Shown here piece after piece: positions 2,165 to 19,207 of a stretch of 64,000 bases of DNA. Location of the stretch: positions 51,467-115,466 of IMG/VR virus record IMGVR_UViG_3300021957_003133; one strand, 5' to 3'. A program made the position numbers and the translations under genes. The notes under the pieces were generated by a model. It did no database searches. It saw only the letters and a list, made by a program, of their open reading frames with translations, and was not told the origin of the DNA. Origin of the DNA: a virus. How positions within the stretch are numbered: position 1 is the stretch's first letter; the number at the start of each line of letters is the position of its first letter.

Positions 2165-2192
2165 AAAAGCACCTTAAGGGGTGCTTTTTTTT
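2165..2192 (+). terminator. Rho-independent terminator
   Basis: AAAAGCACC-ttaagg-GGTGCTTTT followed by a T-run, just after the stop at 2151. Confidence 0.85.
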
Positions 2193-2210
2193 GACTCAAA
2201 CTAATGGCCG

Positions 2211-2217
2211 ATAAATA
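2211..2217 (+). promoter_or_regulatory. T4-like late promoter motif (ATAAATA), 5 nt before ATG
   Basis: ATAAATA-gtagt-ATG(2223); no Shine-Dalgarno; the motif recurs before other genes. Confidence 0.6.
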
Positions 2218-2222
2218 GTAGT

Positions 2223-2537
2223 ATGAGCGAAATCAATGAACTAGTAGAACAAATCAAGCAGGCAACAGATTTTCAGACTAATAAACAAATTTTACGTGAA
2301 AAGATTAAGACAGACTTACACGTAGCACACAACGGTGGTTTATTTTTAGTTTCTGTTGAACTGATAGCATTCCTTTCAACATGGAATGACGAAGAACTAT
2401 TTGTAGAAGATACATACAACAATCCAATCCCCGTCAATAGACAAGAGTTTCTAACTAAATGCCAAGAACATTATCACTCAGTGATGAATACGTGGCATAT
2501 TGAGTATGCAGAACTTAAACGACAACGCAAAGTCTAG
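2223..2537 (+). CDS. Hypothetical protein (possible tail-fibre assembly-like)
   Basis: 104 aa ORF, first gene of a tightly overlapping operon. Confidence 0.5.
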   Translation: MSEINELVEQIKQATDFQTNKQILREKIKTDLHVAHNGGLFLVSVELIAFLSTWNDEELFVEDTYNNPIPVNRQEFLTKCQEHYHSVMNTWHIEYAELKRQRKV

Positions 2538-3273
2538 AGGCGTTTTATTATTTGCCTACAACACTGACAGTGTTGACTACGTTAAAATCGCAGAACGTGC
2601 CGCACGATTGATTGAACACAATTTAAAATTACCTGTTACCATTATAACTGATATGCAGAGTCCTCAAACCAATGAGAGGATAGGGTATAAAAACGGTAGC
2701 CAATGGTTTAATGGTGATAGATATCGTGCTTATGAACTCAGTCCTTATGATGAAACTTTATTGTTAGACAGTGACTATTTGATATTTGATAACAGCTTGA
2801 TTAAGATCTTAGACACAGTTGACGATTATAAAATAATGTCAAACAACCAATCACCAACACATAGCCAAGACGGAGATATGGGTGCATTGAGTTTAGCATT
2901 TGTCTGGGCAACTGCGGTAGTATTTAAAAAAACTCAAAAAGCCAAACAGTTATTTGATTTAGTTGGTAGGATACAAAGGAACTACGAATACTACGTAAAG
3001 TTATACCACTTAAGAGAAAATAACTTCCGTAATGATTATGCTTTTGCTATAGCCGATAACATTCTTTCAGGATATCACGCCAGTTCAGGCATACCTTGGT
3101 GTATGTTAACCATCGACCATGCAGTTAAAAAGATTGAAACACAAAACAACAAACTGATAGTGAGAGAAGATAGCAAGGCATACATAATAACAAGACAGAA
3201 TTTACACATCATGGATAAAGATTATCTATTAGGCGATAGCCATCAAAAACTGTTGGATGAAATATGTCTATAG
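2500..3273 (+). CDS. Glycosyltransferase-like protein (GT-A fold)
   Basis: RGVLLFAYN...DYVKIA start; SPYDETLLLDSD (DxD) motif. Confidence 0.6.
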   Translation: MSMQNLNDNAKSRGVLLFAYNTDSVDYVKIAERAARLIEHNLKLPVTIITDMQSPQTNERIGYKNGSQWFNGDRYRAYELSPYDETLLLDSDYLIFDNSLIKILDTVDDYKIMSNNQSPTHSQDGDMGALSLAFVWATAVVFKKTQKAKQLFDLVGRIQRNYEYYVKLYHLRENNFRNDYAFAIADNILSGYHASSGIPWCMLTIDHAVKKIETQNNKLIVREDSKAYIITRQNLHIMDKDYLLGDSHQKLLDEICL

Positions 3274-4115
3274 ATAGGGGATTTTTAACTATAGCACAGA
3301 ACACAGACGGAGTAGACTATCTACGACTAGCATACGCACAGGCCATGAGTATTAAGTTAACTATGCCTGGTAGTCAATATTGTGTTATTGTTGATCAAGA
3401 CACTAACAAACAAATCACAGACGAGCAAAGACTAGTGTTTGATCATGTTCGAGTTCTAGACAAGGACTATGCCAAACAAGATCAGTGGAAGTTAGCTAAC
3501 GAATGGCAAGTGTTTAATCTAAGTCCTTACAAAGAAACAATAAAAGTAGAAAGCGATATCTTGTTTACACGCAGTATAGAACATTGGTGGCACGCATTTA
3601 GGCTACGCGACATAGTGTTAAGTCTAGGTACACGAAATTTTAAAGGCAAACAAGCCAAGTCGAGAGTGTATAGAAAAATATTTGATGCCAATCAATTGCC
3701 GGACGTTTACAACGGATTGATGTACTTTCGTTATAGCGAAACTGCTAGTGAATTTTTTGAGATAGCAGAACAAGTATTTAAACAATGGGAAACAGTTAAA
3801 GGAAATATATTAAAAGGGTTTAGTTATGAAGAAGCATCAACCGACGTAGTTTATGCCATCGCGGCAAAGACACTAGGAGTTGAACTATGTACATTGCCTG
3901 ATTGTGATTTTATCAACTTTACTCATATGAAAAATGCAATCAATGACTGGCCTGATGATAAATCTTGGACTGAAATGATAATGACAGAAGTAGATCTTCC
4001 AATGATACGTATTAACAATGTTAATCAATATCATCCTGTACACTATCAAGATAAAAACTGGCTCACCGATGAAATAATTGAAAGGTATAAAGAATGTTTA
4101 CACAACAAGAATTAG
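3264..4115 (+). CDS. Glycosyltransferase-like protein, paralog of 2500..3273
   Basis: RGFLTIAQN..DYLRLA and SPYKETIKVESD mirror the upstream paralog; FTHMK and HY motifs near the C-terminus. Confidence 0.6.
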   Translation: MSIDRGFLTIAQNTDGVDYLRLAYAQAMSIKLTMPGSQYCVIVDQDTNKQITDEQRLVFDHVRVLDKDYAKQDQWKLANEWQVFNLSPYKETIKVESDILFTRSIEHWWHAFRLRDIVLSLGTRNFKGKQAKSRVYRKIFDANQLPDVYNGLMYFRYSETASEFFEIAEQVFKQWETVKGNILKGFSYEEASTDVVYAIAAKTLGVELCTLPDCDFINFTHMKNAINDWPDDKSWTEMIMTEVDLPMIRINNVNQYHPVHYQDKNWLTDEIIERYKECLHNKN

Positions 4116-4441
4116 ATCAAGCTATGAAACAATGGCCAGAGATCAATGAAGAGACCGTTGAATATAGATTACACTATGACCATACTGGTTTTATCTACAT
4201 GCAGACGCTACAAAATCATCCAGAGAATACCCAGTATATTGTAGTAGACGAAACTGTTTATTTTGATACCCGAGACTATAAAATAGTTGACGGTAAGCCC
4301 AAAATCATTGACTTACCAACCGGATATCGTGTACAATTAAAGAGTAGCAATAAAGGATATCAAGTGGTCAAAAATCATGCAGGTATCTTGTTGGAAAAAG
4401 AAACATACAACAATGTGGAATACTATGAAGAAAATAGTTGA
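4094..4441 (+). CDS. Hypothetical protein
   Basis: 115 aa ORF overlapping both neighbours in the operon. Confidence 0.55.
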   Translation: MFTQQELDQAMKQWPEINEETVEYRLHYDHTGFIYMQTLQNHPENTQYIVVDETVYFDTRDYKIVDGKPKIIDLPTGYRVQLKSSNKGYQVVKNHAGILLEKETYNNVEYYEENS

Positions 4442-5318
4442 TATAGCTGATTTAGATTGTGTTTACCTCAGCTACGACGAACCTAAAAAAGAAGAGTTTT
4501 GGATTAAAATTTCCAATATGGTTCCTTGGGCAACTCGTGTCGACGGAGTTAAAGGCAGTGATGCCGCACATAAAGCCGCGGCTGATTCTAGCACTACAGA
4601 TAGATTTATTCTAATAGACGGTGATAACTTACCCGACACAGAGTTCTTTAATCAACAGTTGGTATTAGATGACAACAATCAAGATTGTGTATTCCGTTGG
4701 AAAGCCAAGAATAACATAAACGGATTACAGTACGGCAACGGTGGATTAAGTTGTTGGACAAAAGAGTTTATTTACAATATGAAAACTCACGAGAATACAG
4801 ATGGTGATGAAGCCAATGATATAGAGTTTTGCTTTTATGAAAACTATTGGGCAATGCACGACTGCTATTCAACTACATATCCAAATGCTACACCTTTTCA
4901 GGCTTGGCGAGCAGGATTCCGTGAAGGTGTTAAGATGTGTTTAGATAGAGGAACAAAACCTAGTCCAGCAGACTTTAAACAAAAAGCACATGACAGAAAT
5001 TTGGATCACCTCAGCGTATGGCATAATGTAGGTCGAGATGTTGAAAATGGTATATGGGCTATGGCAGGTGCAAGACAAGGCACAGTAATGACTATGTTGT
5101 CAGACTGGGATCATCGAGAAGTACAATGGTTTGACAACTTAGAAAAGATATGGAATGAAGTAGAGTCACAGGATGCTGAAACTATAGCACATGAGAACGG
5201 TACAGAACTCAGAAAATTAGAGTTACCTGCACTTAAATATGATAGCGAACAAAGTAAGTTTTTCAAACATCATTACAAAAGCGGATTTAACAATAAAGGA
5301 ATAATGGAACGTGAGTAA
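4425..5318 (+). CDS. Glycosyltransferase-like protein (GT-A, DGD motif)
   Basis: YLSYDEP, RVDGVKGSDAAHKAAA, FILIDGD, NGLQYGNGG, AWRAGFRE; start re-assigned to ATG 4425. Confidence 0.55.
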   Translation: MKKIVDIADLDCVYLSYDEPKKEEFWIKISNMVPWATRVDGVKGSDAAHKAAADSSTTDRFILIDGDNLPDTEFFNQQLVLDDNNQDCVFRWKAKNNINGLQYGNGGLSCWTKEFIYNMKTHENTDGDEANDIEFCFYENYWAMHDCYSTTYPNATPFQAWRAGFREGVKMCLDRGTKPSPADFKQKAHDRNLDHLSVWHNVGRDVENGIWAMAGARQGTVMTMLSDWDHREVQWFDNLEKIWNEVESQDAETIAHENGTELRKLELPALKYDSEQSKFFKHHYKSGFNNKGIMERE

Positions 5319-6705
5319 AAGTAAATTTATGAGCTCTGCAGAAGAGATGAAGGAAAAATTAGGGCCTAGTCTCTGCCTGGCAAAATGGCAACAGGTTAGT
5401 TTACATTTACCTACTGGACTCAATAATAGCTGTTATCATCCACCGTTGCATGAAATTGATGTAAAACCGCTAGAGTTCCATCCCAGTGCTTTGCATAATA
5501 CTGTTCATAAGAAAGAGCAACGGAAAAAAATGCTAGAGGGTGAGAAACCTAAAGAGTGTAACTACTGTTGGACTATGGAAGATGCTGGACATCTGAGCGA
5601 TAGACACTATCGTAGTGGTGAGCCCTGGGCCGCAGAACATTATGATAATATTGTTAACCAACCATGGGACAAAGATGTTACTCCAAGTTACGTGGAAGTA
5701 AATTTTAGTCACGGATGCAACCTTGCTTGTAGTTATTGTAGTCCACAGTTTTCAACTGAATGGAATAAAGACATAGAACGCTGGGGTGCTTACCCGACAA
5801 AAAGTCCACATAATGACCCTATGCATTTTAAAGGACGTCGACAACCTATACCAGTTAGAGAAAACAATCCTTATGTAGAAGCATTTTGGCAGTGGTGGCC
5901 CGAGCTATACCCTGAACTTAAACACTTCCGCATGACAGGTGGTGAGCCTCTCATGGACAAAAACACACATAGAGTATTTGACTACATATTAAGTAGTCCT
6001 AAACCAGACTTACACGTTGATGTTACTAGTAATTTTTCAGTAGAGCCAAAACTATTTAATCGCTATATTGACAAGGTGCAACAACTTTGTACTGGAGAAC
6101 GAATAGAACATTTTATGCAATATGTAAGTGTTGACACTGGAATAGCTGAACACGCTGAATATATAAGACATGGGTTAAACTTTAAAAGATTAGAAAACAA
6201 TGTGTATAGATATCTTGAAGAAGTGCCACATAGAAATAGTTTAACATTTATCTTAACCATGAACAATCTTAGCTTATTAGGACTACAAAGACAACTAGAA
6301 TGGATCCTAGAACTAAGACGAGTATATAATACAGACGGTTATCAAAAAATATGGTTTGATACACCGGTGTTAAGAACTCCGAGTTGGCAAAGTCTACAGA
6401 TACTTCCAGAAAGCTATGTAGGTATATTAGAGAATGTTATCAAATGGATGAAACTGCACAAGCTAGATGAAAACAGTGATAGATTTGACGGGTTCAAAGA
6501 TTACGAAATACAGAGAATGGAACGTGATTGTGCTTGGATGAAGAAAGGTAAAAAACTAAATGAAAAATATTTACACGAAACCCGTGCAGACTTTTATAAT
6601 TTTTTCAATGAATATGATAAGCGTAGGAAGATTGACTTTTTGACAGTGTTTCCACAGATGAAAGAGTTCTGGCAGGAGTGCAAATGGCATGCCGAAAATA
6701 GCTAA
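5311..6705 (+). CDS. Radical SAM protein with N-terminal twitch/SPASM-like domain (paralog 1)
   Basis: CNLACSYC motif; TGGEP; N-terminal CLAKW..SCYH..CNYCW. Confidence 0.9.
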   Translation: MSKSKFMSSAEEMKEKLGPSLCLAKWQQVSLHLPTGLNNSCYHPPLHEIDVKPLEFHPSALHNTVHKKEQRKKMLEGEKPKECNYCWTMEDAGHLSDRHYRSGEPWAAEHYDNIVNQPWDKDVTPSYVEVNFSHGCNLACSYCSPQFSTEWNKDIERWGAYPTKSPHNDPMHFKGRRQPIPVRENNPYVEAFWQWWPELYPELKHFRMTGGEPLMDKNTHRVFDYILSSPKPDLHVDVTSNFSVEPKLFNRYIDKVQQLCTGERIEHFMQYVSVDTGIAEHAEYIRHGLNFKRLENNVYRYLEEVPHRNSLTFILTMNNLSLLGLQRQLEWILELRRVYNTDGYQKIWFDTPVLRTPSWQSLQILPESYVGILENVIKWMKLHKLDENSDRFDGFKDYEIQRMERDCAWMKKGKKLNEKYLHETRADFYNFFNEYDKRRKIDFLTVFPQMKEFWQECKWHAENS

Positions 6706-8044
6706 GGAAACAGACTTAGAGTATAAGCATAGAGTAATTGACATTAAAAGTGAAAGTTTCTGTGCGGCTAAATGGTATAACGCTACTATATGGTTGGGAA
6801 GTGGTATGACTACTAGTTGCCATCATCCGTTGCCACACCCTATTGACATAGAAGCTATTAAAACTAATCCAAGTGCTTTACATAACACTGACAAGAAAAA
6901 ACAAGAACGAGAACAGATGCAGAAAGGTGAACGCCCTAGTGGATGTGAGTACTGCTGGAAAGTAGAAGACATGGGAACTGATGCTATATCAGATAGGGTT
7001 TATAAAACAGTTATATATGAGGACAAAGAAAATGATGAAGCTTTTAACACACCTTGTCAAGAAGATGTTAATCTTAAAACATTAGAGATTGCTTTTGATA
7101 GAACTTGTCAACTTGCTTGTAGTTATTGTAACCCTGCGTTTAGTAGTACTTGGGTTAAAGATGTTAAACGTAACGGAGCATATATTGATTTAGTTTCAGA
7201 TGGTAGGAATCATTTTACTCACACGCACGACAGTAGTCAGTTGTATACTTTTAGTGAAACTAATCCTTACATTGAAGCATTCTTCAAGTGGTGGGAAACA
7301 GACTTACACAAAACATTAAATGAATTACGTATCACTGGTGGCGAACCTCTTATGAGTGGACACACGTGGAAGTTGATTGAATGGTTTAAAACTAATCAAG
7401 GGAGATCAAAAACTAAATTAGCGATTAACAGTAACTTGGCTATCTCTCAAGAAAAGCTCGCAGAGTTTATAGACAGTATACAATCACTTCCACACTTAGA
7501 AGTGTATACCAGTAATGAAAGTGTTGGAGCACAGTCAGAGTATATAAGAGATGGTATAAATTATCTCGAATGGTGTCAAAATATCGAAACCTTAATGGAT
7601 TGTAGTTCTGTAAAAATACTACATGTGATGTTCACTATTAACAGTCTTTGTTTAGACAGCATAACTGATCTATTAGACTATCTTATGAAACTAAAACACC
7701 GGCATGGTAAGTTCAGTCTGAGTTTTAGCTTAAATATATTAAGATTCCCTAGTTTTCAAAGTGCTACAGTACTACCTGATGACATTAGAAATCAGTATAA
7801 AGAAAAATTACAGTCTTGGTTAGATCTAAATAAAGATGATCTAACATTACACGAGTACGAAGTAAATCATGTAGAAAGATTAGTTGATTATTTAGACATA
7901 GTTAAAACTCCGCATGCAGGTGCTGATGAAATAACAACTCTACAGAACGATTTTAAACAGTTTTACAAACAATATGATGAACGTAGAGGAAAGAACTTTA
8001 CAGAAACATTTCCTAGATTAACAGAATGGTATAATACATTATGA
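6689..8044 (+). CDS. Radical SAM protein with N-terminal twitch domain (paralog 2)
   Basis: CQLACSYC; TGGEP; N-terminal CAAKW..SCHH..CEYCW. Confidence 0.9.
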   Translation: MPKIAKETDLEYKHRVIDIKSESFCAAKWYNATIWLGSGMTTSCHHPLPHPIDIEAIKTNPSALHNTDKKKQEREQMQKGERPSGCEYCWKVEDMGTDAISDRVYKTVIYEDKENDEAFNTPCQEDVNLKTLEIAFDRTCQLACSYCNPAFSSTWVKDVKRNGAYIDLVSDGRNHFTHTHDSSQLYTFSETNPYIEAFFKWWETDLHKTLNELRITGGEPLMSGHTWKLIEWFKTNQGRSKTKLAINSNLAISQEKLAEFIDSIQSLPHLEVYTSNESVGAQSEYIRDGINYLEWCQNIETLMDCSSVKILHVMFTINSLCLDSITDLLDYLMKLKHRHGKFSLSFSLNILRFPSFQSATVLPDDIRNQYKEKLQSWLDLNKDDLTLHEYEVNHVERLVDYLDIVKTPHAGADEITTLQNDFKQFYKQYDERRGKNFTETFPRLTEWYNTL

Positions 8045-8208
8045 GTGAAGAAATAAGCACACAACGTATTGCAATAAGTACAGACGGCGTTGAAATAGAC
8101 AGCAGTCAAGGTGACTTATTGTCAGAAGCAGTCCTACTTGGCACCATTGTTATAGTAGTAGCTGTATTATACATAGGTAAGAAATGGATAGACAGGAAGT
8201 TTAAATGA
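8041..8208 (+). CDS. Small membrane protein, 55 aa (not in ORF track)
   Basis: MSEEISTQRIAISTDGVEIDSSQGDLLSEAVLLGTIVIVVAVLYIGKKWIDRKFK; ATGA overlaps at both ends; one hydrophobic helix. Confidence 0.7.
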   Translation: MSEEISTQRIAISTDGVEIDSSQGDLLSEAVLLGTIVIVVAVLYIGKKWIDRKFK

Positions 8209-9524
8209 GTGACAAAGAAACAGACGACTACTATAAAAATCACGAGTATCACGATCGTAAACCTGTGTACATTGATGAAAAAGATTTAAGGACAGATCAA
8301 TTAGATAGACTTACAAAGAGTGAAACATTCTGTATGATCCCTTGGATACACATGCATGCATTCCCCAATGGGCAAGCATTTCCTTGCTGTCTTGCTGACA
8401 GTGATCATCCTATAGGCGACTTACATAAGAATACTATTCGAGAAGTATGGAATGACACAGCATACAAAACAATGCGTAAGAATATGCTTGAAGAAAAGAG
8501 CTGTAAAGAATGTACTAAATGTTATGAACAAGAAGATATGGGTTTTGTTAGTATGCGTAATTCATCAAACAAATCTTTTGGACATAATATTGGAATAGTG
8601 GATGACACCAAACCAGATGGTACCTTTGATGATTTCAAACTACGTTACTATGATATTAGATTTAGTAACTTATGCAATATGAGTTGTCGTACCTGTGGTG
8701 GTTGGTTTTCTAGTTCGTGGCATGACGAAGAAACAGCATTATATGGTAAGCGTGAGTATCCTAAATTTATGTTTGCTGGCAAAGACAAAGAAGATATGTG
8801 GAATCAATTACAAGAACACATTCCTTATCTAGAACAAGTATACTTTGCTGGTGGTGAACCTTTGATAATGGAAGAACACTATCGCTTGTTAGATGAACTA
8901 GAAAGACAAGAGTTATTCAATGTTAGACTACAGTATAATACTAACTTTAGTAAGCTAAAACTAAAAACAAAACATGTGTTTGACTATTGGCAGAGATTTA
9001 AAAATGTGTCAGTGGGTGCTAGTTTAGATGCCATGGGAGCTAGAGCAGAATACATGCGTAAAGGCACAGTGTGGGCAGAAACTGTTAGTAATAGAGAACG
9101 GATGTTACAAGAATGTCCTAACACAGACTTTTATGTTAGTAGTACCGTTAGCATTTACAACGCACTACATGTCATGGACTTCCATCGTGACTGGGTTGAA
9201 CGTGGATTAATCAAAGCACAAGACTGGAACATCAATATATTACAGGGTCCTAACAGAGACAGGATTGATGTGCTACCAAAGATTTATAAAGAACAAGTAA
9301 AAGAAAAGATACTAGAACATATTGAATGGTTACGCCCACAGGATCATTTAAATCGTGCTGTTGTTGGTTATGAAAGCATATTGACATTTATGGAAAATCA
9401 AGACCAACAAAACTTGTTACAAGAGTTCTTAGAAGTAAATGATAGACACGACGACTATAGAAAAGAACAGTTTGAAACGGTGTTTCCTGAATACAAGGAG
9501 TTAAGAACATATGTCTCTACCTAA
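8205..9524 (+). CDS. Radical SAM protein with N-terminal twitch domain (paralog 3)
   Basis: CNMSCRTC; AGGEP; N-terminal CMIPW..PCC..CTKCY. Confidence 0.9.
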   Translation: MSDKETDDYYKNHEYHDRKPVYIDEKDLRTDQLDRLTKSETFCMIPWIHMHAFPNGQAFPCCLADSDHPIGDLHKNTIREVWNDTAYKTMRKNMLEEKSCKECTKCYEQEDMGFVSMRNSSNKSFGHNIGIVDDTKPDGTFDDFKLRYYDIRFSNLCNMSCRTCGGWFSSSWHDEETALYGKREYPKFMFAGKDKEDMWNQLQEHIPYLEQVYFAGGEPLIMEEHYRLLDELERQELFNVRLQYNTNFSKLKLKTKHVFDYWQRFKNVSVGASLDAMGARAEYMRKGTVWAETVSNRERMLQECPNTDFYVSSTVSIYNALHVMDFHRDWVERGLIKAQDWNINILQGPNRDRIDVLPKIYKEQVKEKILEHIEWLRPQDHLNRAVVGYESILTFMENQDQQNLLQEFLEVNDRHDDYRKEQFETVFPEYKELRTYVST

Positions 9525-11212: not shown

Positions 11213-12503
11213 GAATAGACCAGAAACGCTGTGTATGGCTCCGTGGACTCATACTTACCTATCGCCACAGACTGAACGTAGAATGTGCTGTGCTAGTCGT
11301 GAGGATGCACAATCATTTGAGCAGTATATAGATACCAAAGCTGGCACAGGCAAATACCAACCAATCACTTTAGAAAAACACTGGAATTCAGACCATATGA
11401 AATCAGTGCGTAAACGCATGATGGCTGGAGAAACCTTAAAGGAATGTGCCGTATGTAACGATAAGCTGTTGAATACTGATGTTTACCGTAGTTATTTCAA
11501 CCGAATGTTTAGCGATAAGTATGATAGTATATGGGACACTACAGATGATACGGGCTACACCACAACAAAGCCTGTAAGCTGGGATTATAGATTCAGCAAT
11601 CTCTGTAACTTTAAGTGTCGCACGTGCGGTGACATGTTGTCAAGTGCATGGGAGTCAGAGCAAAGACAGCATAACACTATCAATTGGGATAATCCTAGAA
11701 ACAATTGGATGAAACCCGACATTAGGAAACAGATATCTGAGTTTCAGGACAATCAAATTGAGAAAGAGTTCGCAGATGCTGTAGAATCTCATCAAATTGA
11801 GGAAGTATATTGGGTTGGTGGTGAGCCATTGATGTACGATCAACACTGGAGATACATGAAACGTATCGTTGATTTAGGAGATGGGAAAAATGTTTACGCT
11901 AGATACAACACAAATCTTAGTCGCATCAATTATCGCGGTATCAACCTCTATACTGATATTCTATCTAGGCTACAGGATTGGCAAATATGTGCAAGCCTTG
12001 ATGGTACAGGAAGAATTGGAGAATATATCAGGACAGGTCTCAACTATCAAACGTGGGTTGAAAACTTTAAGGAAGGTCTTAAGGGAGTTACTAACGATCG
12101 TCAAATGAGAATAGACTTTACACTTACCTTACCGGGTATGTTTGAGGTTAAAGAGATGGACAAGCTAGCTTATAATTTAGATAGTGAGATATTGGCCAAA
12201 GTAATATTCAGTTTCACACCAGACATCATTATGAGTCCGTTAGCACTGCCAAGGAAACTATTAGAAGAGTGGATTGATGATATATTAGAATCCAAGCTAT
12301 GTAAACCTGTACTGATAGATATGCTTACCCAACTAAAAACAAGACCTACGTTCGAAGAACAATGGCCTGATACCTATCAAGAAAGTCTTGCAAAAGGCAA
12401 GCGTCGTGTGTTACAATTAGAGAGTATACGTAAAGATGAATTTACTTTAGCGGATATTTTAAAATCAAGGAAAGAAGTATATGAGTGGTATCAATCAATC
12501 TAA
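11199..12503 (+). CDS. Radical SAM protein with N-terminal twitch domain (paralog 5)
   Basis: CNFKCRTC; VGGEP; N-terminal CMAPW..MCC..CAVC. Confidence 0.9.
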   Translation: MKQPKNRPETLCMAPWTHTYLSPQTERRMCCASREDAQSFEQYIDTKAGTGKYQPITLEKHWNSDHMKSVRKRMMAGETLKECAVCNDKLLNTDVYRSYFNRMFSDKYDSIWDTTDDTGYTTTKPVSWDYRFSNLCNFKCRTCGDMLSSAWESEQRQHNTINWDNPRNNWMKPDIRKQISEFQDNQIEKEFADAVESHQIEEVYWVGGEPLMYDQHWRYMKRIVDLGDGKNVYARYNTNLSRINYRGINLYTDILSRLQDWQICASLDGTGRIGEYIRTGLNYQTWVENFKEGLKGVTNDRQMRIDFTLTLPGMFEVKEMDKLAYNLDSEILAKVIFSFTPDIIMSPLALPRKLLEEWIDDILESKLCKPVLIDMLTQLKTRPTFEEQWPDTYQESLAKGKRRVLQLESIRKDEFTLADILKSRKEVYEWYQSI

Positions 12504-13563
12504 GGTTTCAGTAACACTAAGAAATCCTTTAGTTCGCGATGATCAAATAACATATGACATCATCCTGAATGATACCCAATTGGCTAAAGACTGGGTTGAT
12601 GCTCTTAAACAGATATTACAAAACAACAATCTATTAGAAAAGAACTTTTGTTTCTTAGGGTTTCCAGATACACAACGTAATATTAAATATCTCAGTAATG
12701 AACTTAAACAAGCTGTCGACACTATCAATCAATACTTCGACGATTACGAGATTACAGAAACGTACACACCTGAAACACTACGCAACGGCTTAGATCCTAA
12801 TCAAGATCTTATGAATCAATTACATAATCATTTTGAAGTACTGCAAGGAACTGTAGAGAATCTTAGTGATTACTATAGACGTGCTGACCACGAAACAAAG
12901 TATGCCATAAGACAGTTAAACATTATCTGTCACGAGTTAGAAAGTTTGATGTTAAGCTTACGTAAAAAAGTTAACGCTCCTGATTGGGTACGTAGCAGTC
13001 AAATAACTACATTTTTACAGTGTGAAAGATTCGAGTTAACACATGAACATAGACAAGGATTCTTAACCAACGGATATGATAGACAGTTTGGCGGTGTTTA
13101 TATGCACTGGACACAGATAGGTAAAACACTGTTTGAAGTATTCAATGATGAAGGCGCTCCAGAACTAACAGATGCAGTATGTGACGCTATAACACACCTA
13201 CAATACTATTCAGGTGAGTTTGATGTTGAATGGGGTAACACTGTTAACAGAGGAGACAGCACAGTGCCTTGGCATAATCAGGCACAAGATAAATTTGAAC
13301 AATGGTTACGAGATAATCAGTTGGATCCTACGAATACTCAATTGAGTTTAGGATATTTGCCGTTGGGCAATATTGATCTTACTACGTTTGGCACAGACGA
13401 TCCCAATGAGATAAGAGAAATACTAGGACGTTACCTTGATATCTATAAAATTAAAGTTGACGGAGTGTCGAATACTTTCGAATACTGCTGGACTGATGAT
13501 GATTACAAGCAACAACAAATTAATAGGATGATTCCAGGATATGATTTTAGTAGCAGGGGGTGA
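12481..13563 (+). CDS. Hypothetical protein with His/Glu-rich helical motifs
   Basis: 360 aa ORF in the operon; NQLHNHFE and LNIICHELE motifs. Confidence 0.55.
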   Translation: MSGINQSKVSVTLRNPLVRDDQITYDIILNDTQLAKDWVDALKQILQNNNLLEKNFCFLGFPDTQRNIKYLSNELKQAVDTINQYFDDYEITETYTPETLRNGLDPNQDLMNQLHNHFEVLQGTVENLSDYYRRADHETKYAIRQLNIICHELESLMLSLRKKVNAPDWVRSSQITTFLQCERFELTHEHRQGFLTNGYDRQFGGVYMHWTQIGKTLFEVFNDEGAPELTDAVCDAITHLQYYSGEFDVEWGNTVNRGDSTVPWHNQAQDKFEQWLRDNQLDPTNTQLSLGYLPLGNIDLTTFGTDDPNEIREILGRYLDIYKIKVDGVSNTFEYCWTDDDYKQQQINRMIPGYDFSSRG

Positions 13564-14359
13564 TAGTTTTGTTTGGGGCAGTGAGTTAGGAGACTGCAAC
13601 CATGATCATGTTGAGACTCTTGGTAGTTCTAGTGGACATAGTAGTCTTACATTTCCAGCTATTTTAGGACAAGACTACGAATACCAATGTTGTGCTTATC
13701 CAGGAAACGGTAATGATACTATTGCTAGAAATGTTATTATAGCATGCGAAAAAAATAAAGAACAAAATCAAGCACAAGTAGTTTCAGTAACATGGACTTT
13801 CCCAGGGAGATACGAATTTCATGTAGAAACTAGTCAAGGTGCTAAATGGGAAACTATTAATTCATGGACAGTAGGTAAGAAATATACTGAAGAATCTGAT
13901 CAACATTTAAATGAATTTGTCGAACAATTTAACGAACATGCTGAAAGTCTGGGTATAGTAAAATTTGCTAAATCTTATTTTGCTAATGTTGGACATTTAG
14001 AGTATTGGGAAACTTATACTGCTATTAAAGAAATAGTATATTTGCAAAATTATCTCAAAGCAAATAATATTCAGTATCTATTTACATGTGCAGATGTTGG
14101 GTTTCTTAATAATCACACAATAAAAGTCGCAGATGATACTATACGTTCGCTGTATAATCAAATTGATTTTGACCGTTGGTACTTGTTTCCTAAAGGTAGC
14201 AGAGCAAACGAAACCACAGTACCAAGAGGTTTTTACCAATGGGCATTGGAAAATAAGTATAGTATAGGCCCGATGAATCACCCGCTAGAGAAAGCACATC
14301 GAGATGCCGCTCTATTAATAAAGGATAAATTTAATGAATTGGTTCAAAAAAATAATTAA
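13541..14359 (+). CDS. SGNH/GDSL-like hydrolase or acyltransferase
   Basis: GGDSFVWG, YPGNGN, C-terminal NHP. Confidence 0.65.
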   Translation: MILVAGGDSFVWGSELGDCNHDHVETLGSSSGHSSLTFPAILGQDYEYQCCAYPGNGNDTIARNVIIACEKNKEQNQAQVVSVTWTFPGRYEFHVETSQGAKWETINSWTVGKKYTEESDQHLNEFVEQFNEHAESLGIVKFAKSYFANVGHLEYWETYTAIKEIVYLQNYLKANNIQYLFTCADVGFLNNHTIKVADDTIRSLYNQIDFDRWYLFPKGSRANETTVPRGFYQWALENKYSIGPMNHPLEKAHRDAALLIKDKFNELVQKNN

Positions 14360-14435
14360 TCGAATAAAGATGGAACTTCGATATCGTAAAAAGTTAAAAG
14401 AACTTAAAAAACGAGATCCGTTTATCTATAAATGA
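14334..14435 (+). CDS. 33-aa basic peptide ending RDPFIYK (not in ORF track)
   Basis: MNWFKKIINRIKMELRYRKKLKELKKRDPFIYK; fills the gap and its TGA overlaps the next ATG. Confidence 0.65.
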   Translation: MNWFKKIINRIKMELRYRKKLKELKKRDPFIYK

Positions 14436-15067
14436 AATTACTAACAGTAGGAGATAGTTTTACTTACGGTGAAGAGCTTGTAGATATAAACAATGCTTGG
14501 CCTTACCTACTAGGTAAACAGATAGACTACGAAGTTACTAATCTAGGAAGTCCAGGATGTAGTAATGCCCGTATGATTCGCAATGTTATAGAAAATGCAG
14601 ACAAGCATGATTTAATTATCATTGCCTGGAGTCATTTTGCTAGATTAGAAGTATCAGATGAGAATGGTACTTATGATCTTTGGCCAGGTGGGTCGGGAGT
14701 ATTCTTTACTGGAGAGTTGAAGTATAGGAAAGAACTAATAAACTATGTAAACAGACACCACAATGATGAATATTTGTATAATCAATACACAACTAATATT
14801 GTGCTAGTACAAAAATATTTAGAATCTAAAGGCAAGCGTTACATCATGATGGATACGTTTGGAAATCATCAAGACAAACAAAGACAGTCTAATGGTTTAA
14901 TCAGTCAAGTAAACGATCAGTATTATATTGGGTGGCCAACAGAAAGCATGATGGAATGGACCTATAAAACACCACAAGGTCCAGCAGGACATTTTTTAGA
15001 AGAAGGACATCAAAAAGTAGCAGAAAAAATCAATGAATATATTAGGAATATCGGCTGGGTTTCATGA
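14432..15067 (+). CDS. SGNH/GDSL-like hydrolase or acyltransferase
   Basis: VGDSFTYG, NLGSPGCSN, C-terminal GHFLEEGH. Confidence 0.7.
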   Translation: MKLLTVGDSFTYGEELVDINNAWPYLLGKQIDYEVTNLGSPGCSNARMIRNVIENADKHDLIIIAWSHFARLEVSDENGTYDLWPGGSGVFFTGELKYRKELINYVNRHHNDEYLYNQYTTNIVLVQKYLESKGKRYIMMDTFGNHQDKQRQSNGLISQVNDQYYIGWPTESMMEWTYKTPQGPAGHFLEEGHQKVAEKINEYIRNIGWVS

Positions 15068-16523: not shown

Positions 16524-16942
16524 AAATATTAATATGCGGATTACCAGGAAGTGGTAAAACAACTTTAGCAAAACCATTTGCGGAACTGTTAGGTGGTGTC
16601 TGGATAAATGCTGATAGTATTAGAAAACAATATGATGATTGGGACTTCAGTGATGAGGGCAGATTACGTCAAGCTGAACGAATGCGTTTACTAGCAGACG
16701 GTGTTGAACTAGCAGGTAAAGTTGCTGTGTGTGATTTTGTTTGCCCTACAGAACAAACACGACAAGCACTTGATGCTGATTATGTAGTATGGATGGATAC
16801 TATTAAGGAAGGACGTTTTAATGATACTAATTTAATATTTAAAAATCCTGATGTTGTCGACTATCGTGTAAGTGCTTGGTTTGACGACACTGATAAGGAA
16901 TTAGTTAAAGTAGTATCAAACTATATAGAGAAAAGTAAATAA
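16520..16942 (+). CDS. cysC: Adenylyl-sulfate kinase-like P-loop kinase
   Basis: GLPGSGKTT, NADSIR, DFSDEGRLRQA, DFVCP. Confidence 0.75.
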   Translation: MKILICGLPGSGKTTLAKPFAELLGGVWINADSIRKQYDDWDFSDEGRLRQAERMRLLADGVELAGKVAVCDFVCPTEQTRQALDADYVVWMDTIKEGRFNDTNLIFKNPDVVDYRVSAWFDDTDKELVKVVSNYIEKSK

Positions 16943-18234
16943 TGTACGACATATTCATCATGGATATGGGCGGTCACGACGACAACGTTAAGAGTCTTGT
17001 ACAACGTTTCCCTCACGCTAAGGTGGTAAGATACTACGATAATCATTTAGACACTGTAAAACGCTGTATTTCGCGTTGTAGGACCACATATGCTTGGGTA
17101 ATTTCAAGTTGTTGCGACTATGCTAACTTTGATTTTGACTATCGACCTATACATCATCAAGCCTATCAAATACACTGTTGGGCTAGTGGCAATCAACAGT
17201 TCGGCGACACATTTCTAATACCAAAAGATGAATTCTTAAAGCAACAAGATATAGAACTGTTAGAATGGTATAAAGACATCAATTGGCACCAAGATGGTGT
17301 TCCAAGACTAGCTTGGCCTGTGTTAGAGTGTGAAACAGAAGATATCACCCAGCATTTAAAAGACTGCGAGTTCGATAGCAGTTATGTATGGGTCAACCAA
17401 CGCACAGACTATGATCCTTCACTGTGGAAAGATAGATGTTTTTACAGTTTTAACAAATCCGGTGATGTATCGTTAGCACCGCGTGAAATTCAGACACATT
17501 TAAGCACACAAATCTATGATTATCCATACATTATCAAGCAAAAAGAAGCGTTTTTACCTTCTAAAACGTTGGATATTATCTACATCAGCAATGGCGAGAT
17601 TGAAAGTGATCGTTGGTATGATCATGCAGTATCAACATCGGGTAAAACAATCAAAAGAGTGCAAGATGTTAACGGAAGAGATCTTGCGATCAAACAGGCG
17701 GCCTATTTGAGTACAACACCATGGTTCTTTACTGTGTGGGCTAAGTTAGAAGTCGACACAGATTTTGATTGGCAATGGCAACCAGATTGTCTACAACAAC
17801 CAAAACATTATATATTCCATGCACGTAATCCTGTTAACGGATTACAGTATGGGCACATGGCAATGGTAGCCTATAATCGTGAGTTAGTACTAGAAACACG
17901 TAAGTGGGGATTAGATTTTACCATGAGTAAATTACACGGTGTTGTTCCTATTGTAAGCGGAACTGCTCACTATAATCGTGATCCATTGATGACTTGGCGT
18001 ACAGCATTTCGTGAAGTAGTTAAATTAAAACAAGACAGTGAAACAGGCAACATTGAAAGTCTACATAGACTACAGGTTTGGTTAACTAAAGCTGTTGGTG
18101 AAAATGCAGAATGGAGTCTACGTGGAGCAAAAGATGCTGTTGAATATTATGAAAGCGTTAACGGTATTTTTAATAAGTTAATGTTATCGTTTGATTGGGA
18201 TTGGTTAAAAAGTTATTACGACAAGCGTTACTAA
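16942..18234 (+). CDS. Glycosyltransferase-like protein; C-terminal half paralogous to 4425..5318
   Basis: DIIYISNGE, RVQDVNG, NPVNGLQYG and TWRTAFRE mirror motifs of 4425..5318. Confidence 0.5.
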   Translation: MYDIFIMDMGGHDDNVKSLVQRFPHAKVVRYYDNHLDTVKRCISRCRTTYAWVISSCCDYANFDFDYRPIHHQAYQIHCWASGNQQFGDTFLIPKDEFLKQQDIELLEWYKDINWHQDGVPRLAWPVLECETEDITQHLKDCEFDSSYVWVNQRTDYDPSLWKDRCFYSFNKSGDVSLAPREIQTHLSTQIYDYPYIIKQKEAFLPSKTLDIIYISNGEIESDRWYDHAVSTSGKTIKRVQDVNGRDLAIKQAAYLSTTPWFFTVWAKLEVDTDFDWQWQPDCLQQPKHYIFHARNPVNGLQYGHMAMVAYNRELVLETRKWGLDFTMSKLHGVVPIVSGTAHYNRDPLMTWRTAFREVVKLKQDSETGNIESLHRLQVWLTKAVGENAEWSLRGAKDAVEYYESVNGIFNKLMLSFDWDWLKSYYDKRY

Positions 18235-18238
18235 ATCG

Positions 18239-19207
18239 CTACTTCCATTCGTGTTCTTTCCACAGTGAAGGATGTTGTTGATACCATTCATAATACTTTA
18301 CTAGACCCTGTTCAAAATTAACTTGGGGATTGTAACCTAATTCTTTCTTAGCTAGTTCTGAACTAAGTCTACCACGTTTAGGAAATGCTAGGTCACGTTG
18401 ATTTATTTTAATAGTTCCTTTACCTGCGATAGAGATAGCAAGTTCGGCGGCCATTTTCAGTGTCCATAGTTTATCGCTTGAACGTGTTATGTTGTATATT
18501 TTATTTCGAGCTTGTTCACTGGTACTAGCTAGTGCGATTCCTTTTGCTGTGTCTTCTACATAGGTAAAGTCTAAGACTTCATCAGCACCATTTACCTGTA
18601 AGCATTCTCCACGCATTGCTTGAGTTATAAATTTACCAACCACACGATCCTCAACGTCCCATTCACCGTAGACAGCACTTGGACGTACAATGGTATAATC
18701 AAAATGCTTGCTATAATCTTCTACTAACTTTTCTCCAGCATACTTTAAGATAGCATAACTGCCACGAGGGTCGCAGACTGCTGTTTCTGTTACATCATTG
18801 TCGAAGTCACCATAGACCATTGAGCTTGATATATAAACAAATTTTTTAATTGTATATCTCTTACTGGCTTCTAGTAAATTCATTAGGCCCGATGACATCA
18901 CATCACTTGCTAGTACAGGATTTTGATTTGCTATCTTTTGTCTTGGAAAACTTGCTAGGTGTATGACTACATCTGGATTGAATTTCTTAAACACAGTATT
19001 AACAGCAGGGTCTCTGATATCTCCGATGTTTTGTTCACAGTCAACTCGTTTAAGTCTGTGATTGGCAAGATAAACTATTTCCTGCTCTGGAATAATTCCA
19101 TACCCAGTCAAGCTGTCTAAGATCGAACATTGATGTCCTTGTTGTTCAAGTTCTCGGACTACATTGTGTCCTATAAACCCAGCACCACCTGTTAACAGTA
19201 TTCTCAA
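18239..19207 (-). CDS. NAD-dependent epimerase/dehydratase (extended SDR)
   Basis: TGGAGFIG, ISSSMVYG, YAILK (YxxxK), DFTYVED. Confidence 0.92.
   Translation of the reverse strand: MRILLTGGAGFIGHNVVRELEQQGHQCSILDSLTGYGIIPEQEIVYLANHRLKRVDCEQNIGDIRDPAVNTVFKKFNPDVVIHLASFPRQKIANQNPVLASDVMSSGLMNLLEASKRYTIKKFVYISSSMVYGDFDNDVTETAVCDPRGSYAILKYAGEKLVEDYSKHFDYTIVRPSAVYGEWDVEDRVVGKFITQAMRGECLQVNGADEVLDFTYVEDTAKGIALASTSEQARNKIYNITRSSDKLWTLKMAAELAISIAGKGTIKINQRDLAFPKRGRLSSELAKKELGYNPQVNFEQGLVKYYEWYQQHPSLWKEHEWK

What the first reader, a model, noticed from the sequence alone, without database searches (positions are those of the whole stretch)
2211..19207. 16-kb operon with five twitch-radical SAM paralogs, GTs, SGNH proteins, carbamoyltransferase and APS kinase next to tail-fibre genes
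Seen: one run of overlapping genes begins at an ATAAATA motif right after the fibre genes. It encodes 4 GT-like proteins, 5 radical SAM paralogs with an N-terminal Cys-rich twitch domain, 3 SGNH-like proteins, a NodU carbamoyltransferase and an APS kinase; an NDP-sugar epimerase converges on it. Known: twitch-domain radical SAMs such as BtrN and NeoN oxidise or epimerise sugars; NodU carbamoylates and SGNH proteins acylate or deacylate glycans; APS kinase makes PAPS. Inference: a phage-encoded pathway building an elaborately modified glycan, most simply on the virion or fibres, as in giant-virus glycosylation. Alternative targets are DNA or the host surface. Phage MetK (30933) could supply SAM.
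Basis: partly seen in the sequence, partly recalled or inferred. Interest (0 to 1): 0.85.

Follow-up and report, generated by a model that had tools for sequence, protein, structure and literature searches.

The report
Phage radical-SAM sugar-tailoring cassette behind fibres
An uncultured marine giant phage carries, directly behind its tail-fibre genes, a tightly packed block of soluble sugar-handling enzymes built around five ancient copies of a never-tested iron-sulfur "radical SAM" enzyme; the same block sits in hundreds of related phages and most likely makes a heavily edited sugar decoration, but what it makes and what it decorates are still unknown.

Summary
Window 2223-18234 is one co-directional run of 18 mostly overlapping genes, met by a convergent NDP-sugar epimerase.

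- **Radical SAM genes:** five genes pass NCBIfam NF033640 (N-terminal twitch radical SAM), and all seven cluster cysteines are invariant.
- **Other enzymes:** the carbamoyltransferase, three SGNH-like proteins and a phage MetK are confirmed.
- **Transferase-like proteins:** "GT-like" is supported for e by fold and an invariant D-G-D, and for j by homology to e. For b and c it is only a lead.
- **Kinase:** "APS kinase" is a short APS-kinase-like P-loop kinase. No sulfotransferase is in view.
- **Linkage to the fibre genes:** it is obligate in the samples. The order F1-F2-a-b-c-e-R1..R5-g-CT held in nearly all 80 loci found through R1, and in 64 of 64 informative loci found through F2.
- **Other carriers:** a cultured phage, Ralstonia RsoM2USA, carries a reduced, split version. 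Bdellovibrionota genomes hold arrays of up to nine paralogs.
- **Membrane steps:** none of the 19 cassette proteins scored looks membrane-bound.

Best reading: a late, cytoplasmic sugar-building and radical sugar-editing pathway, probably decorating virion proteins. The sugar link is circumstantial and the target is untested. No paper describes it. This scan has met the same cassette several times on other DNA and read it the same way.

The parts
2..1174 (+). F1: fibre-like protein (starts upstream of the window) with a C-terminal Peptidase_G2/intramolecular-chaperone domain
   Evidence: Pfam PF11962 26.6 bits and tail-fibre PHROGs. Upstream of the cassette in 74 of 80 relatives.
1201..2151 (+). 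F2: Gly/Thr/Ser/Asn-rich protein of unknown fold, always the last gene before the cassette; candidate acceptor
   Evidence: No family hit. Used as an independent entry point: 64 of 64 informative loci have the cassette directly downstream.
2165..2192 (+). Intrinsic terminator-like hairpin plus T-run after F2
   Evidence: 10 pairs. An equivalent hairpin is present in most relatives.
2191..2219 (+). Promoter region: TTGACT-N17-AATAGT overlapping GATAAATA (2210-2217), ending 5 nt before the ATG of gene a (leaderless start inferred)
   Evidence: Relatives have TTGACA/TTTACT-N17-TATAAT at the same place.
2223..2537 (+). a: 104-aa protein, unknown function, first gene of the cassette in all relatives
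2500..3273 (+). b: paralog of c with an LDADY (DxD-like) motif and a C-terminal H..K; GT-A/GT8-like lead only
   Evidence: hhalign b against c 99.4%. No Pfam or PDB hit.
3264..4115 (+). c: paralog of b (LEADM motif); GT-A/GT8-like lead only
   Evidence: Atlas nearest named clusters are Nucleotid_trans/Glyco_transf_8 at 0.96. Profile tests negative.
4094..4441 (+). d: 115-aa protein, unknown; found only in the closer relatives
4377..5318 (+). e: GT-A-like (nucleotide-diphospho-sugar transferase fold) protein with invariant D81-G82-D83 and a helical C-domain; the most conserved non-rSAM gene; adjoins N-twitch rSAMs in bacteria too
   Evidence: AF2 pLDDT 81.5. VIA Z up to 7.8, with the listed top-50 matches almost all GT-A transferases or NTP-transferases. 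Alignment A2. Bacterial adjacency. Fused forms include GT2.
5311..6705 (+). R1: N-twitch radical SAM, subtype R1/R2
   Evidence: NF033640 308 bits. Seven Cys invariant in 80 sequences.
6689..8044 (+). R2: N-twitch radical SAM, subtype R1/R2
   Evidence: NF033640 305 bits
8042..8207 (+). 55-aa ORF with a C-terminal hydrophobic helix, between R2 and R3; not present in the closest relative
   Evidence: Read; compared
8205..9524 (+). R3: N-twitch radical SAM, closest to the family model
   Evidence: NF033640 405 bits; SPASM 44.6 bits at residues 43-106
9511..10728 (+). R4: N-twitch radical SAM
   Evidence: NF033640 340 bits
10721..11212 (+). f: short SGNH-like protein (GCS in place of GDS)
11199..12503 (+). 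R5: N-twitch radical SAM
   Evidence: NF033640 292 bits
12481..13563 (+). g: orphan enzyme-like protein, a cyclophilin-like beta-barrel with an inserted four-helix bundle; invariant C150-H151-E152-x-E154
   Evidence: AF2 pLDDT 88.6. VIA Z 7-9 to cyclophilins. No Foldseek, PDB-profile or Atlas match.
13541..14359 (+). h: SGNH-like protein (N-terminal GGDSFVWGSE)
14432..15067 (+). i: SGNH-like protein, Pfam DUF6071
   Evidence: PF19547 32 bits
15033..16523 (+). CT: NodU/CmcH-type carbamoyltransferase
   Evidence: Pfam Carbam_trans_N 130 bits and _C 169 bits; phrog_1601 311 bits
16520..16942 (+). K: 140-aa P-loop kinase, APS-kinase-like over residues 3-83
   Evidence: Pfam APS_kinase 30.2 bits; phrog_10255 117 bits; PDB 2yvu 2.8e-6. 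Seen in only 6 of 80 relatives.
16942..18234 (+). j: two-domain protein whose C-half (208-398) is homologous to e; conserved (41-47%) in all five long relatives, fused there into larger proteins
   Evidence: hhalign 97%
18239..19207 (-). EPI: extended-SDR NDP-sugar 4-epimerase-like enzyme, convergent on the run; ortholog (53%) kept in complete relatives next to a DegT aminotransferase
   Evidence: Pfam Epimerase 147 bits
30948..31352 (-). MetK (SAM synthetase; the coordinates give the C-terminal domain match), a possible SAM supply
   Evidence: PF02773 195 bits. Also in G001, but not found in G002-G004.

Best explanation
This is a late-expressed, entirely cytoplasmic sugar-building and sugar-editing cassette.

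**Proposed roles (all inferred)**
- GT-A-type transferases (e and j, and probably b and c) transfer sugars from nucleotide sugars onto an acceptor.
- The five N-twitch radical SAM enzymes each perform one distinct, oxygen-independent radical edit, of the dehydrogenation, epimerisation or dehydration type. The substrate would be either the nucleotide-sugar precursors or the attached sugars.
- The four-Cys N-terminal cluster would serve as an electron conduit, as in BtrN.
- Finishing steps: O-carbamoylation (CT), acyl addition or removal (f, h, i), phosphorylation (K) and an unknown step (g).
- The convergent epimerase feeds the pathway. In relatives a DegT aminotransferase does so too.
- The most likely acceptor is a virion protein made at the same time, with the fibre-module protein F2 or its neighbours as first candidates.

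**Shown**
- Gene content and family membership.
- Conservation of the cluster ligands.
- Strict synteny with the fibre genes.
- No hydrophobic segment in any of the 19 cassette proteins scored.
- Co-occurrence of the same enzyme types in bacteria.

**Inferred:** the sugar substrate, the reaction types, late timing and the virion target.
For: **Enzyme integrity**
- All five paralogs pass NF033640.
- Four N-terminal Cys plus CX3CX2C are 100% conserved in 54-80 orthologs of each group, and 98-181 columns per group are at least 95% identical.
- Each group is an old, separate clade.

**Sugar context**
- e has a GT-A/NTP-transferase-like fold. The listed top-50 VIA matches are almost all of that superfamily, and D-G-D is invariant.
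- e-like domains are fused to GT2 in some proteins.
- The carbamoyltransferase, SGNH proteins and GalE-like epimerase are confirmed.
- A DegT/EryC1 aminotransferase sits beside the epimerase ortholog in G001.
- The radical SAM core is closest in sequence to the nucleotide-acting viperins.

**Bacterial counterparts**
- N-twitch arrays adjoin e-like genes and carbamoyltransferases.
- In L143 the array adjoins AsnB-like, GT2, UDP-sugar dehydrogenase and PMT_2 genes.

**Virion link**
- The order F1-F2-a-b-c-e-R1..R5-g-CT holds in nearly all 80 loci, and in 64 of 64 loci reached through F2.
- The link extends to cultured RsoM2USA. There the a-b-c-e-rSAM block follows the giant virion protein and virion proteins detected by mass spectrometry (PMC8504454).

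**Timing**
- The ATAAATA motif lacks a -35 element before the virion genes, and it precedes gene a.

**Cytoplasmic pathway**
- No hydrophobic 19-mer above KD 1.6 in any of the 19 cassette proteins scored.

**Transcription in nature**
- Metatranscriptome contigs cover the whole run. This is weak evidence, because DNA carry-over is not excluded.
Against: - No member of NF033640 has been assayed, so 'acts on sugars' rests on neighbours only.
- SPASM/twitch radical SAM enzymes very often modify peptides.
- b and c failed every profile test for glycosyltransferases.
- The match of e to GT-A folds is of middling strength (Z under 8; Foldseek E above 0.07).
- In Paenibacillus the single family member lies in an ACP/ketosynthase/acyl-ligase cluster, so the family is not tied to glycans everywhere.
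- Most relatives have a sigma-70-like promoter before gene a. Its timing is unknown and could be early.
- F2 does not co-vary with a/b/c.
- No glycan, glycoprotein or expression time course exists for any carrier.
Confidence: 0.45

Rival explanations
1. The cassette makes a free small molecule, such as an aminoglycoside-like, nucleoside-like or nucleotide-sugar-derived metabolite. The product acts on the host or on competitors and is not attached to the virion.
For: - The enzyme set resembles aminoglycoside and nucleoside antibiotic pathways: a BtrN-type twitch radical SAM, a TobZ/NodU-type carbamoyltransferase, a kinase, an aminotransferase and transferases.
- The radical SAM core is nearest to viperin, which makes a free nucleotide analogue.
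- All scored proteins look soluble.
- No acceptor protein has been identified.
Against: - Obligate position behind the fibre genes across hundreds of phages.
- A late-type motif is shared with the virion genes.
- Three to four transferase-like proteins suggest assembly on an acceptor.
- No exporter or self-resistance gene was seen.
Confidence: 0.2
2. The radical SAM enzymes are protein or peptide maturases. They would modify residues of a virion protein such as F2 or the fibres (cross-links, epimerisation, oxidation), and the sugar-type genes would be a separate add-on.
For: - SPASM/twitch enzymes are classically peptide maturases. NCBIfam side-hits to PapB, StsB, SkfB and others appear for R4, and SkfB appears in the PDB search.
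- The cassette lies next to structural genes.
- An earlier scan note (e1-1958775) proposed this for a different phage cassette.
Against: - No short, leader-bearing or Cys/Ser-rich precursor is conserved. Protein a has few conserved residues and no conserved Cys.
- The N-twitch genes co-occur with e-like transferases and carbamoyltransferases in bacteria where no phage fibre is present.
- The side-hits to maturases lie far below their cut-offs.
- According to the index, part of that earlier claim fell when it was checked on other DNA.
Confidence: 0.12
3. The cassette remodels a host surface glycan (LPS, capsule or S-layer glycan) during infection, for example to block superinfection or to aid release.
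For: - In Bdellovibrionales the arrays lie beside LPS/O-antigen-type genes: AsnB-like, GT2, UDP-sugar dehydrogenase and PMT_2.
- Carbamoyl and acyl tailoring is typical of surface polysaccharides.
Against: - No membrane protein, flippase, polymerase or polyprenyl-phosphate transferase is present in the cassette.
- The phage is a large lytic-type myovirus relative, and the linkage is to fibre genes rather than to lysogeny genes.
Confidence: 0.1
4. The cassette hypermodifies phage DNA by building a sugar or carbamoyl adduct on a base.
For: - Phage DNA hypermodification pathways use kinases, radical SAM enzymes and transferases (established knowledge).
- MetK is present.
Against: - The 7-deazaguanine genes lie about 10-25 kb away on the other strand, not in this run.
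- No base-exchange, hydroxymethylase or DNA-binding enzyme is present in the cassette.
- Position and motif tie it to virion genes.
- Bacterial counterparts are not next to DNA-modification genes.
Confidence: 0.08

Closest known systems
NCBIfam NF033640, N_Twi_rSAM (twitch domain-containing radical SAM protein)
   Same: All five paralogs, plus a sixth elsewhere in the genome, score 292-405 bits against a cut-off of 170. They show full-length matches, the N-terminal four-Cys domain and CX3CX2C.
   Different: The family is only catalogued. The library holds no paper naming NF033640, and the papers found for 'twitch domain-containing radical SAM' concern other enzymes. Membership therefore says nothing about the reaction.
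BtrN (butirosin 2-deoxy-scyllo-inosamine dehydrogenase) and related twitch radical SAM sugar enzymes (NeoN, DesII-type chemistry)
   Same: A radical SAM core plus one auxiliary four-Cys cluster domain of twitch type. There is a weak sequence match of the N-domain to the BtrN twitch (E 0.05). The neighbourhood holds amino-sugar enzymes: an epimerase, and DegT in relatives.
   Different: The twitch domain is N-terminal here, not C-terminal. There is no significant sequence relationship. The substrate is unknown, and there are five to ten paralogs per locus instead of one.
Viperin / prokaryotic viperins (RSAD2, NF038283)
   Same: These are the best solved-structure match to the radical SAM core (7.8e-6) and the best NCBIfam side-hit (R4, 6.4e-8). 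They act on nucleotides, which fits nucleotide-linked substrates.
   Different: The scores are far below the family cut-off (32 against 180). Viperins have no auxiliary cluster domain.
Virus-encoded virion glycosylation: mycobacteriophage capsid/tail glycosylation (Freeman et al. 2023, PMC10527164, seen only in the reference list read; content from own knowledge) and chlorovirus/mimivirus glycan machinery (PBCV-1 A64R, PDB 2p6w, among the matches)
   Same: Virus-encoded cytoplasmic GT-A-type transferases lie next to structural genes. e resembles viral GT-A enzymes: STIV A197 at Z 7.5 and PBCV-1 A64R at Foldseek probability 0.8.
   Different: None of those systems contains radical SAM enzymes. 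No glycan has been demonstrated here.
NodU/CmcH/TobZ O-carbamoyltransferases
   Same: Both Pfam domains are well above their cut-offs, and there is a full-length PHROG match.
   Different: It is not an equivalog of NodU (140 bits against a cut-off of 1000). The acceptor is unknown.

Membership tests
NF033640 N_Twi_rSAM | Whole-protein HMM score above the curated cut-off (170 bits) | tested here: met
   308, 305, 405, 340 and 292 bits for R1-R5. A sixth copy at G000:C1:20560-22092 scores 379 bits.
NF033640 N_Twi_rSAM | Auxiliary Fe-S (twitch/SPASM-like) domain placed N-terminal to the radical SAM core | tested here: met
   Pfam SPASM lies at residues 43-106, 8-77 and 12-87, ahead of Radical_SAM, in R3, R4 and R5. 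Four Cys are invariant across all five paralogs and across 54-80 orthologs of each.
Radical SAM superfamily | CX3CX2C cluster motif and GGE SAM-binding motif | tested here: met
   C136/C140/C143 and G210-G211-E212-P213 (R1 numbering) are invariant.
Radical SAM superfamily | Reductive cleavage of SAM and turnover of a substrate | not testable with these tools
   Needs anaerobic enzymology.
BtrN-type twitch sugar dehydrogenases | Significant sequence or architecture match to BtrN (C-terminal twitch) | tested here: not met
   The twitch is N-terminal. The profile match to BtrN has E 0.05. The single-domain query found nothing.
GT-A glycosyltransferases (protein e, and j by homology) | GT-A Rossmann-like fold | tested here: inconclusive
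   The listed top-50 VIA matches are almost all GT-A or NTP-transferases, but Z is at most 7.8. Foldseek E is at least 0.07. There was no Pfam hit.
GT-A glycosyltransferases (protein e) | DXD metal/nucleotide-sugar motif after a beta-strand | tested here: met
   D81-G82-D83 is invariant in 31 orthologs and follows strand 76-81 of the model.
GT8 / Nucleotid_trans (proteins b and c) | Match to PF01501 or PF03407, or to a solved GT-A | tested here: inconclusive
   No hit even at E of 1 or less per genome. No hit in Pfam for 31 orthologs of b or in PDB profiles. hhalign against phage GT8 proteins was insignificant. The only support is an Atlas embedding lead at 0.96 and DxD-like motifs.
SGNH/GDSL hydrolases (f, h, i) | Block I Ser near the N-terminus, a C-terminal catalytic His, and a profile match to solved SGNH proteins | tested here: met
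   Ser9 and His187 are invariant in 30 sequences. The profile hits 4rsh at 3.2e-6 and TesA at about 0.005. i passes DUF6071. The block V Asp is not evident, and f has GCS instead of GDS.
NodU/CmcH carbamoyltransferases | Carbam_trans_N and Carbam_trans_C domains above the Pfam cut-offs | tested here: met
   130 bits and 169 bits.
APS kinase (CysC) | Full-length match above the curated equivalog cut-off (TIGR00455, 138.7 bits) | tested here: not met
   24.4 bits, with only residues 3-84 matched. The protein is 140 aa. Pfam APS_kinase gives 30.2 bits against a cut-off of 21.1, and PDB 2yvu gives 2.8e-6. The result is 'APS-kinase-like'. No sulfotransferase was found in the held third of the genome.
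Extended SDR NDP-sugar epimerases | Epimerase domain, GxxGxxG and S...YxxxK, without the dehydratase D-E pair | tested here: met
   PF01370 146.8 bits. GGAGFIG, SSSMVYGD and Y-A-I-L-K were read. The best structures are UDP-Glc and UDP-GlcA 4-epimerases.
Phage virion glycosylation systems | Glycan shown on virion proteins and dependent on the phage genes | not testable with these tools
   Only synteny and the shared late-type motif are available.

The most novel reading that the evidence does not exclude
The five N-twitch radical SAM enzymes form an obligate assembly line that carries out successive radical rearrangements on one sugar or nucleotide-sugar scaffold. The product would be a monosaccharide type not yet known in biology, which the phage then installs on its fibres. 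That would be a new class of oxygen-independent glycan chemistry, shared with predatory Bdellovibrionota.
Probability: 0.2. Interest if true: 0.9.

Novelty: new variant of a known kind. Interest (0 to 1): 0.72.

Why it matters
If the reading is right, a very common group of aquatic giant phages spends about 5% of its genome on making an unusual sugar decoration. R3 alone has thousands of near-orthologs in metagenomes, and near-identical DNA occurs in at least 14 estuary and marine runs dated 2014-2023. The pathway would use five or more radical enzymes whose reactions nobody has measured.

It would add radical SAM chemistry to virus-encoded glycosylation. It would also give a function to a catalogued but untested enzyme family that forms arrays of up to nine copies in Bdellovibrionota, and it bears on how phage fibres meet host surfaces.

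Tried and rejected
**Searches that found nothing**
- Megablast of the whole run against cultured phages: no match.
- PDB profile searches for e, c, b and g: nothing meaningful.
- Pfam on 31 orthologs of b: nothing.
- PF01501 and PF03407 searched per genome at E of 1 or less: no hit on b or c.
- hhalign of b and c against two phage GT8 proteins: insignificant. The short aligned pieces did fall on the DxD and N-terminal motifs.
- Foldseek and Atlas for g: no usable match.
- The N-terminal domain of R3 alone against the PDB: nothing.
- Sulfotransferase families: no match in G000, only sub-threshold matches in relatives.
- Literature searches for NF033640, for N-terminal twitch enzymes in phages, and for radical SAM together with virion glycosylation: no paper on this cassette.

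**Tool failures and limits**
- The first genome-contig scans failed or found nothing. A three-paralog alignment then worked.
Several genes in relatives and in bacterial loci therefore stay unannotated.

**Uninformative results**
- The sigma-70 and terminator scan inside the run is at chance level, apart from the terminator after F2.
- The RNA contigs cannot give timing or strand.

**Corrected along the way**
- My early impression that j and the epimerase are not conserved was an artefact of flank length.

**Rejected ideas**
- Protein a as a carrier or precursor protein: it has no conserved Ser/Cys motif.
- A classical Wzx/Wzy-type pathway: no membrane proteins.

Full report
**Setting**

The window is bases 51467-115466 of a 115,466-bp IMG/VR virus record that CheckV rates 33% complete. 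Complete relatives are 337-347 kb with terminal repeats, so this is a fragment of a giant phage. Near-identical DNA occurs in at least 14 estuary and marine metagenome runs from many studies.

Upstream of the window lie a 4525-aa virion protein and several fibre-like genes. The window opens inside F1, the last of these. F1 has a Peptidase_G2/intramolecular-chaperone C-terminus and tail-fibre PHROG matches. F2 (1201-2151) follows it.

**Check of the observation**

Gene a starts at 2223. From there to 18234 there are 18 + strand ORFs that overlap or abut. A convergent SDR gene ends 4 nt from the last one.

The five radical SAM paralogs all pass NCBIfam NF033640 (292-405 bits, cut-off 170). Pfam places the SPASM-type domain in front of the radical SAM core in three of them. 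Four N-terminal Cys, CX3CX2C and GGEP are invariant among the paralogs. All seven Cys are kept in every one of 54-80 orthologs of each paralog.

The other assignments fared as follows.
- The carbamoyltransferase is unambiguous.
- f, h and i are one family with an N-terminal G-D/C-S motif and an invariant Ser and His. Their joint profile hits solved GDSL/SGNH proteins.
- The convergent gene is a GalE-like NDP-sugar epimerase, not a 4,6-dehydratase.
- MetK is present at window 30948-31352 on the minus strand.
- The kinase is the weakest call. At 140 aa it resembles APS kinase only over its first 83 residues and falls far below the curated equivalog cut-off. No sulfotransferase is visible.

**The proteins without family hits**

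- *e (4377-5318).* It is the best conserved non-rSAM protein, at 53-77% identity. A confident model (pLDDT 81.5) has a GT-A/NTP-transferase-like N-domain. The listed top-50 structural matches are almost all of that superfamily, but Z is at most 7.8. A strand is followed by an invariant D-G-D.
- *j.* Its C-terminal half is homologous to e.
- *b and c.* They are paralogs of each other, with DxD-like LDADY and LEADM motifs. A language-model search places c nearest GT8/Nucleotid_trans clusters. Every profile test failed, so 'glycosyltransferase' is a lead for these two.
- *g.* It models confidently (pLDDT 88.6) as a cyclophilin-like barrel with an inserted helical bundle. It has many invariant charged residues and matches nothing known.

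None of the 19 cassette proteins scored has a hydrophobic segment. The only hydrophobic segment in the run lies in the unconserved 55-aa ORF at 8042-8207, which was not scored.

**Conservation and linkage**

At least 561 IMG/VR stretches encode relatives of the paralogs. In the best 80 loci the order F1-F2-a-b-c-(d)-e-R1-R2-R3-R4-R5-g-(h,i)-CT is kept almost without exception.

The reverse test entered through F2 instead and found at least 548 stretches. All 64 loci with enough downstream sequence carried a-b-c-e and the radical SAM genes directly after F2.

In complete relatives the block is longer. It holds extra radical SAM genes, j inside a larger protein, and the epimerase ortholog (53% identity) next to a DegT/EryC1 sugar aminotransferase.

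The genes evolve as modules. e and R1-R5 stay near 60-70% identity, while a and b drop to 24-35%. One contig (L186) has a-d at 92-97% identity but F2, e and R1 at about 80%, which points to exchange of the a-d block.

**Cultured and bacterial counterparts**

Among 50,697 cultured-phage records, only Ralstonia phage RsoM2USA and two Vibrio phages have N-twitch genes. RsoM2USA has a split, reduced cassette.
- ORF355 (weakly F2-like), then a, b, c, e, an R1/R2-like rSAM and an e-like gene. These lie just after the giant virion protein and virion proteins detected by mass spectrometry.
- At a second site, an R2 ortholog, two h-like genes and the carbamoyltransferase (PMC8504454).

In bacterial genomes the family is commonest in Bdellovibrionota, with up to nine paralogs in 21 kb. 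It often sits with e-like genes, carbamoyltransferases, canonical rSAM-SPASM genes, B12-rSAM genes, short SDRs and GDSL proteins.
- One Bdellovibrionales array adjoins AsnB-like, GT2, UDP-sugar dehydrogenase and PMT_2 genes.
- In Paenibacillus a single copy lies in an ACP/ketosynthase/acyl-ligase/GT2 cluster.

A tree shows R1-R5 as five old clades. The deepest split separates R1+R2 from the rest. Bdellovibrionota sequences are the nearest non-phage neighbours of each clade, and those contigs share nothing else with the phage.

**Regulation**

A strong terminator-like hairpin follows F2. Gene a starts 5 nt after GATAAATA. The same motif, without a -35 element, precedes the virion genes, and at seven sites an ATG follows within 5-7 nt. 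This fits T4-type late promoters and leaderless messages, by inference.

Most relatives instead have TTGACA/TTTACT-N17-TATAAT ending 6-8 nt before the ATG, so timing across the clade is not settled.

Metatranscriptome contigs from one study cover the whole run, but they give neither timing nor proof of RNA origin.

**Interpretation**

The most economical reading is a cytoplasmic pathway that assembles and radically edits a sugar unit and attaches it to a protein made at the same time, most likely in the fibre module.

The fully ligated four-Cys auxiliary cluster suggests an electron-transfer role, as in BtrN-type dehydrogenases. This rests on established knowledge, and the BtrN ligand spacing is recalled from memory. 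The nearest solved cores are viperins, which act on nucleotides, and that fits nucleotide-sugar substrates.

None of this is shown. The family is unassayed, and twitch/SPASM enzymes often act on peptides. Small-molecule, protein-residue, host-surface and DNA targets are kept as rivals with stated odds.

**Novelty**

No paper in the library describes the family's function or this cassette.

This scan has met the same cassette repeatedly on other DNA, with the same reading.
- the reverse synteny test through F2;
- the fold-level assignments for e and g;
- profile support for the SGNH trio;
- the downgrading of the APS kinase call and of the b/c glycosyltransferase call;
- the Bdellovibrionota counterparts of all five orthogroups;
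- the cultured handle, RsoM2USA.

Noticed in passing
G000:C1 30012, 49102, 53677 (window 2211) on the + strand; window 61399, 52807, 40587, 39856 on the minus strand: At seven sites ATAAATA is followed by an ATG after only 5-7 nt, with no room for a ribosome-binding site. This suggests a set of leaderless late messages. Other ATAAATA sites have ordinary leaders.
   Followed up: partly
Loci L011-L090, the spacer between F2 and gene a: Most relatives replace the ATAAATA motif with a near-consensus TTGACA/TTTACT-N17-TATAAT. Its -35 overlaps the T-run of the F2 terminator, and its -10 ends 6-8 nt before the ATG of gene a. The window keeps a weaker TTGACT-N17-AATAGT at 2191-2219.
   Followed up: partly
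window 8042-8207 (+): A 55-aa ORF with a C-terminal hydrophobic helix fills the only sizeable gap in the run. It is absent in the closest relative, where R2 and R3 abut.
   Followed up: partly
G000:C1:17069-22092 (minus strand, outside the window; loci L002, L003): There is a sixth N-twitch radical SAM (510 aa, with an extra 115-aa N-terminus) beside a Rad50/SbcC-like ATPase, and nearby a canonical rSAM-SPASM gene with a short SDR. The rSAM-SPASM plus short-SDR pair is also among the commonest neighbours of N-twitch arrays in Bdellovibrionota.
   Followed up: partly
L132, L143, L150-L152, L157 (Bdellovibrionota and Verrucomicrobiales MAGs): These loci hold tandem arrays of six to nine N-twitch radical SAM paralogs within 21 kb of bacterial chromosome, some copies only recently duplicated.
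   Followed up: partly
L186 (IMGVR_UViG_3300025120_006500): This relative is a mosaic. Genes a-d are 92-97% identical to the window, but F2, e and R1 are only 79-83% identical, as if the a-d block had been exchanged between phages.
   Followed up: no
L096, L097, L111 (Haliscomenobacter sp. MAG, contigs of 183 and 148 kb): Two different full cassettes, with F1 and F2, sit on contigs binned into one Bacteroidota MAG. This is either a hint to the host or a binning artefact.
   Followed up: no
Proteins P0122-P0241: The e-like domain occurs fused inside at least 167 proteins of 550-1215 aa at 43-49% identity. A few of these also carry a GT2 domain or PF13852/PF23351.
   Followed up: no
L179:10279-15386 and L180:6937-10141 (relative G001): The complete relative holds about ten radical SAM genes in this region. 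They include a short 287-aa rSAM between e and R1, an N-SPASM rSAM in an opposite-strand block, and a seventh N-twitch gene after the carbamoyltransferase. Seven of the ten neighbouring ORFs scanned have no Pfam hit.
   Followed up: partly
L115:9551-17775 (Paenibacillus sp.): A single N-twitch radical SAM gene sits between an ACP-like gene and FabG-like, two ketosynthase, acyl-AMP ligase, GT2 and PPTase genes. This suggests a glycolipid or polyketide-like context for this branch of the family.
   Followed up: no
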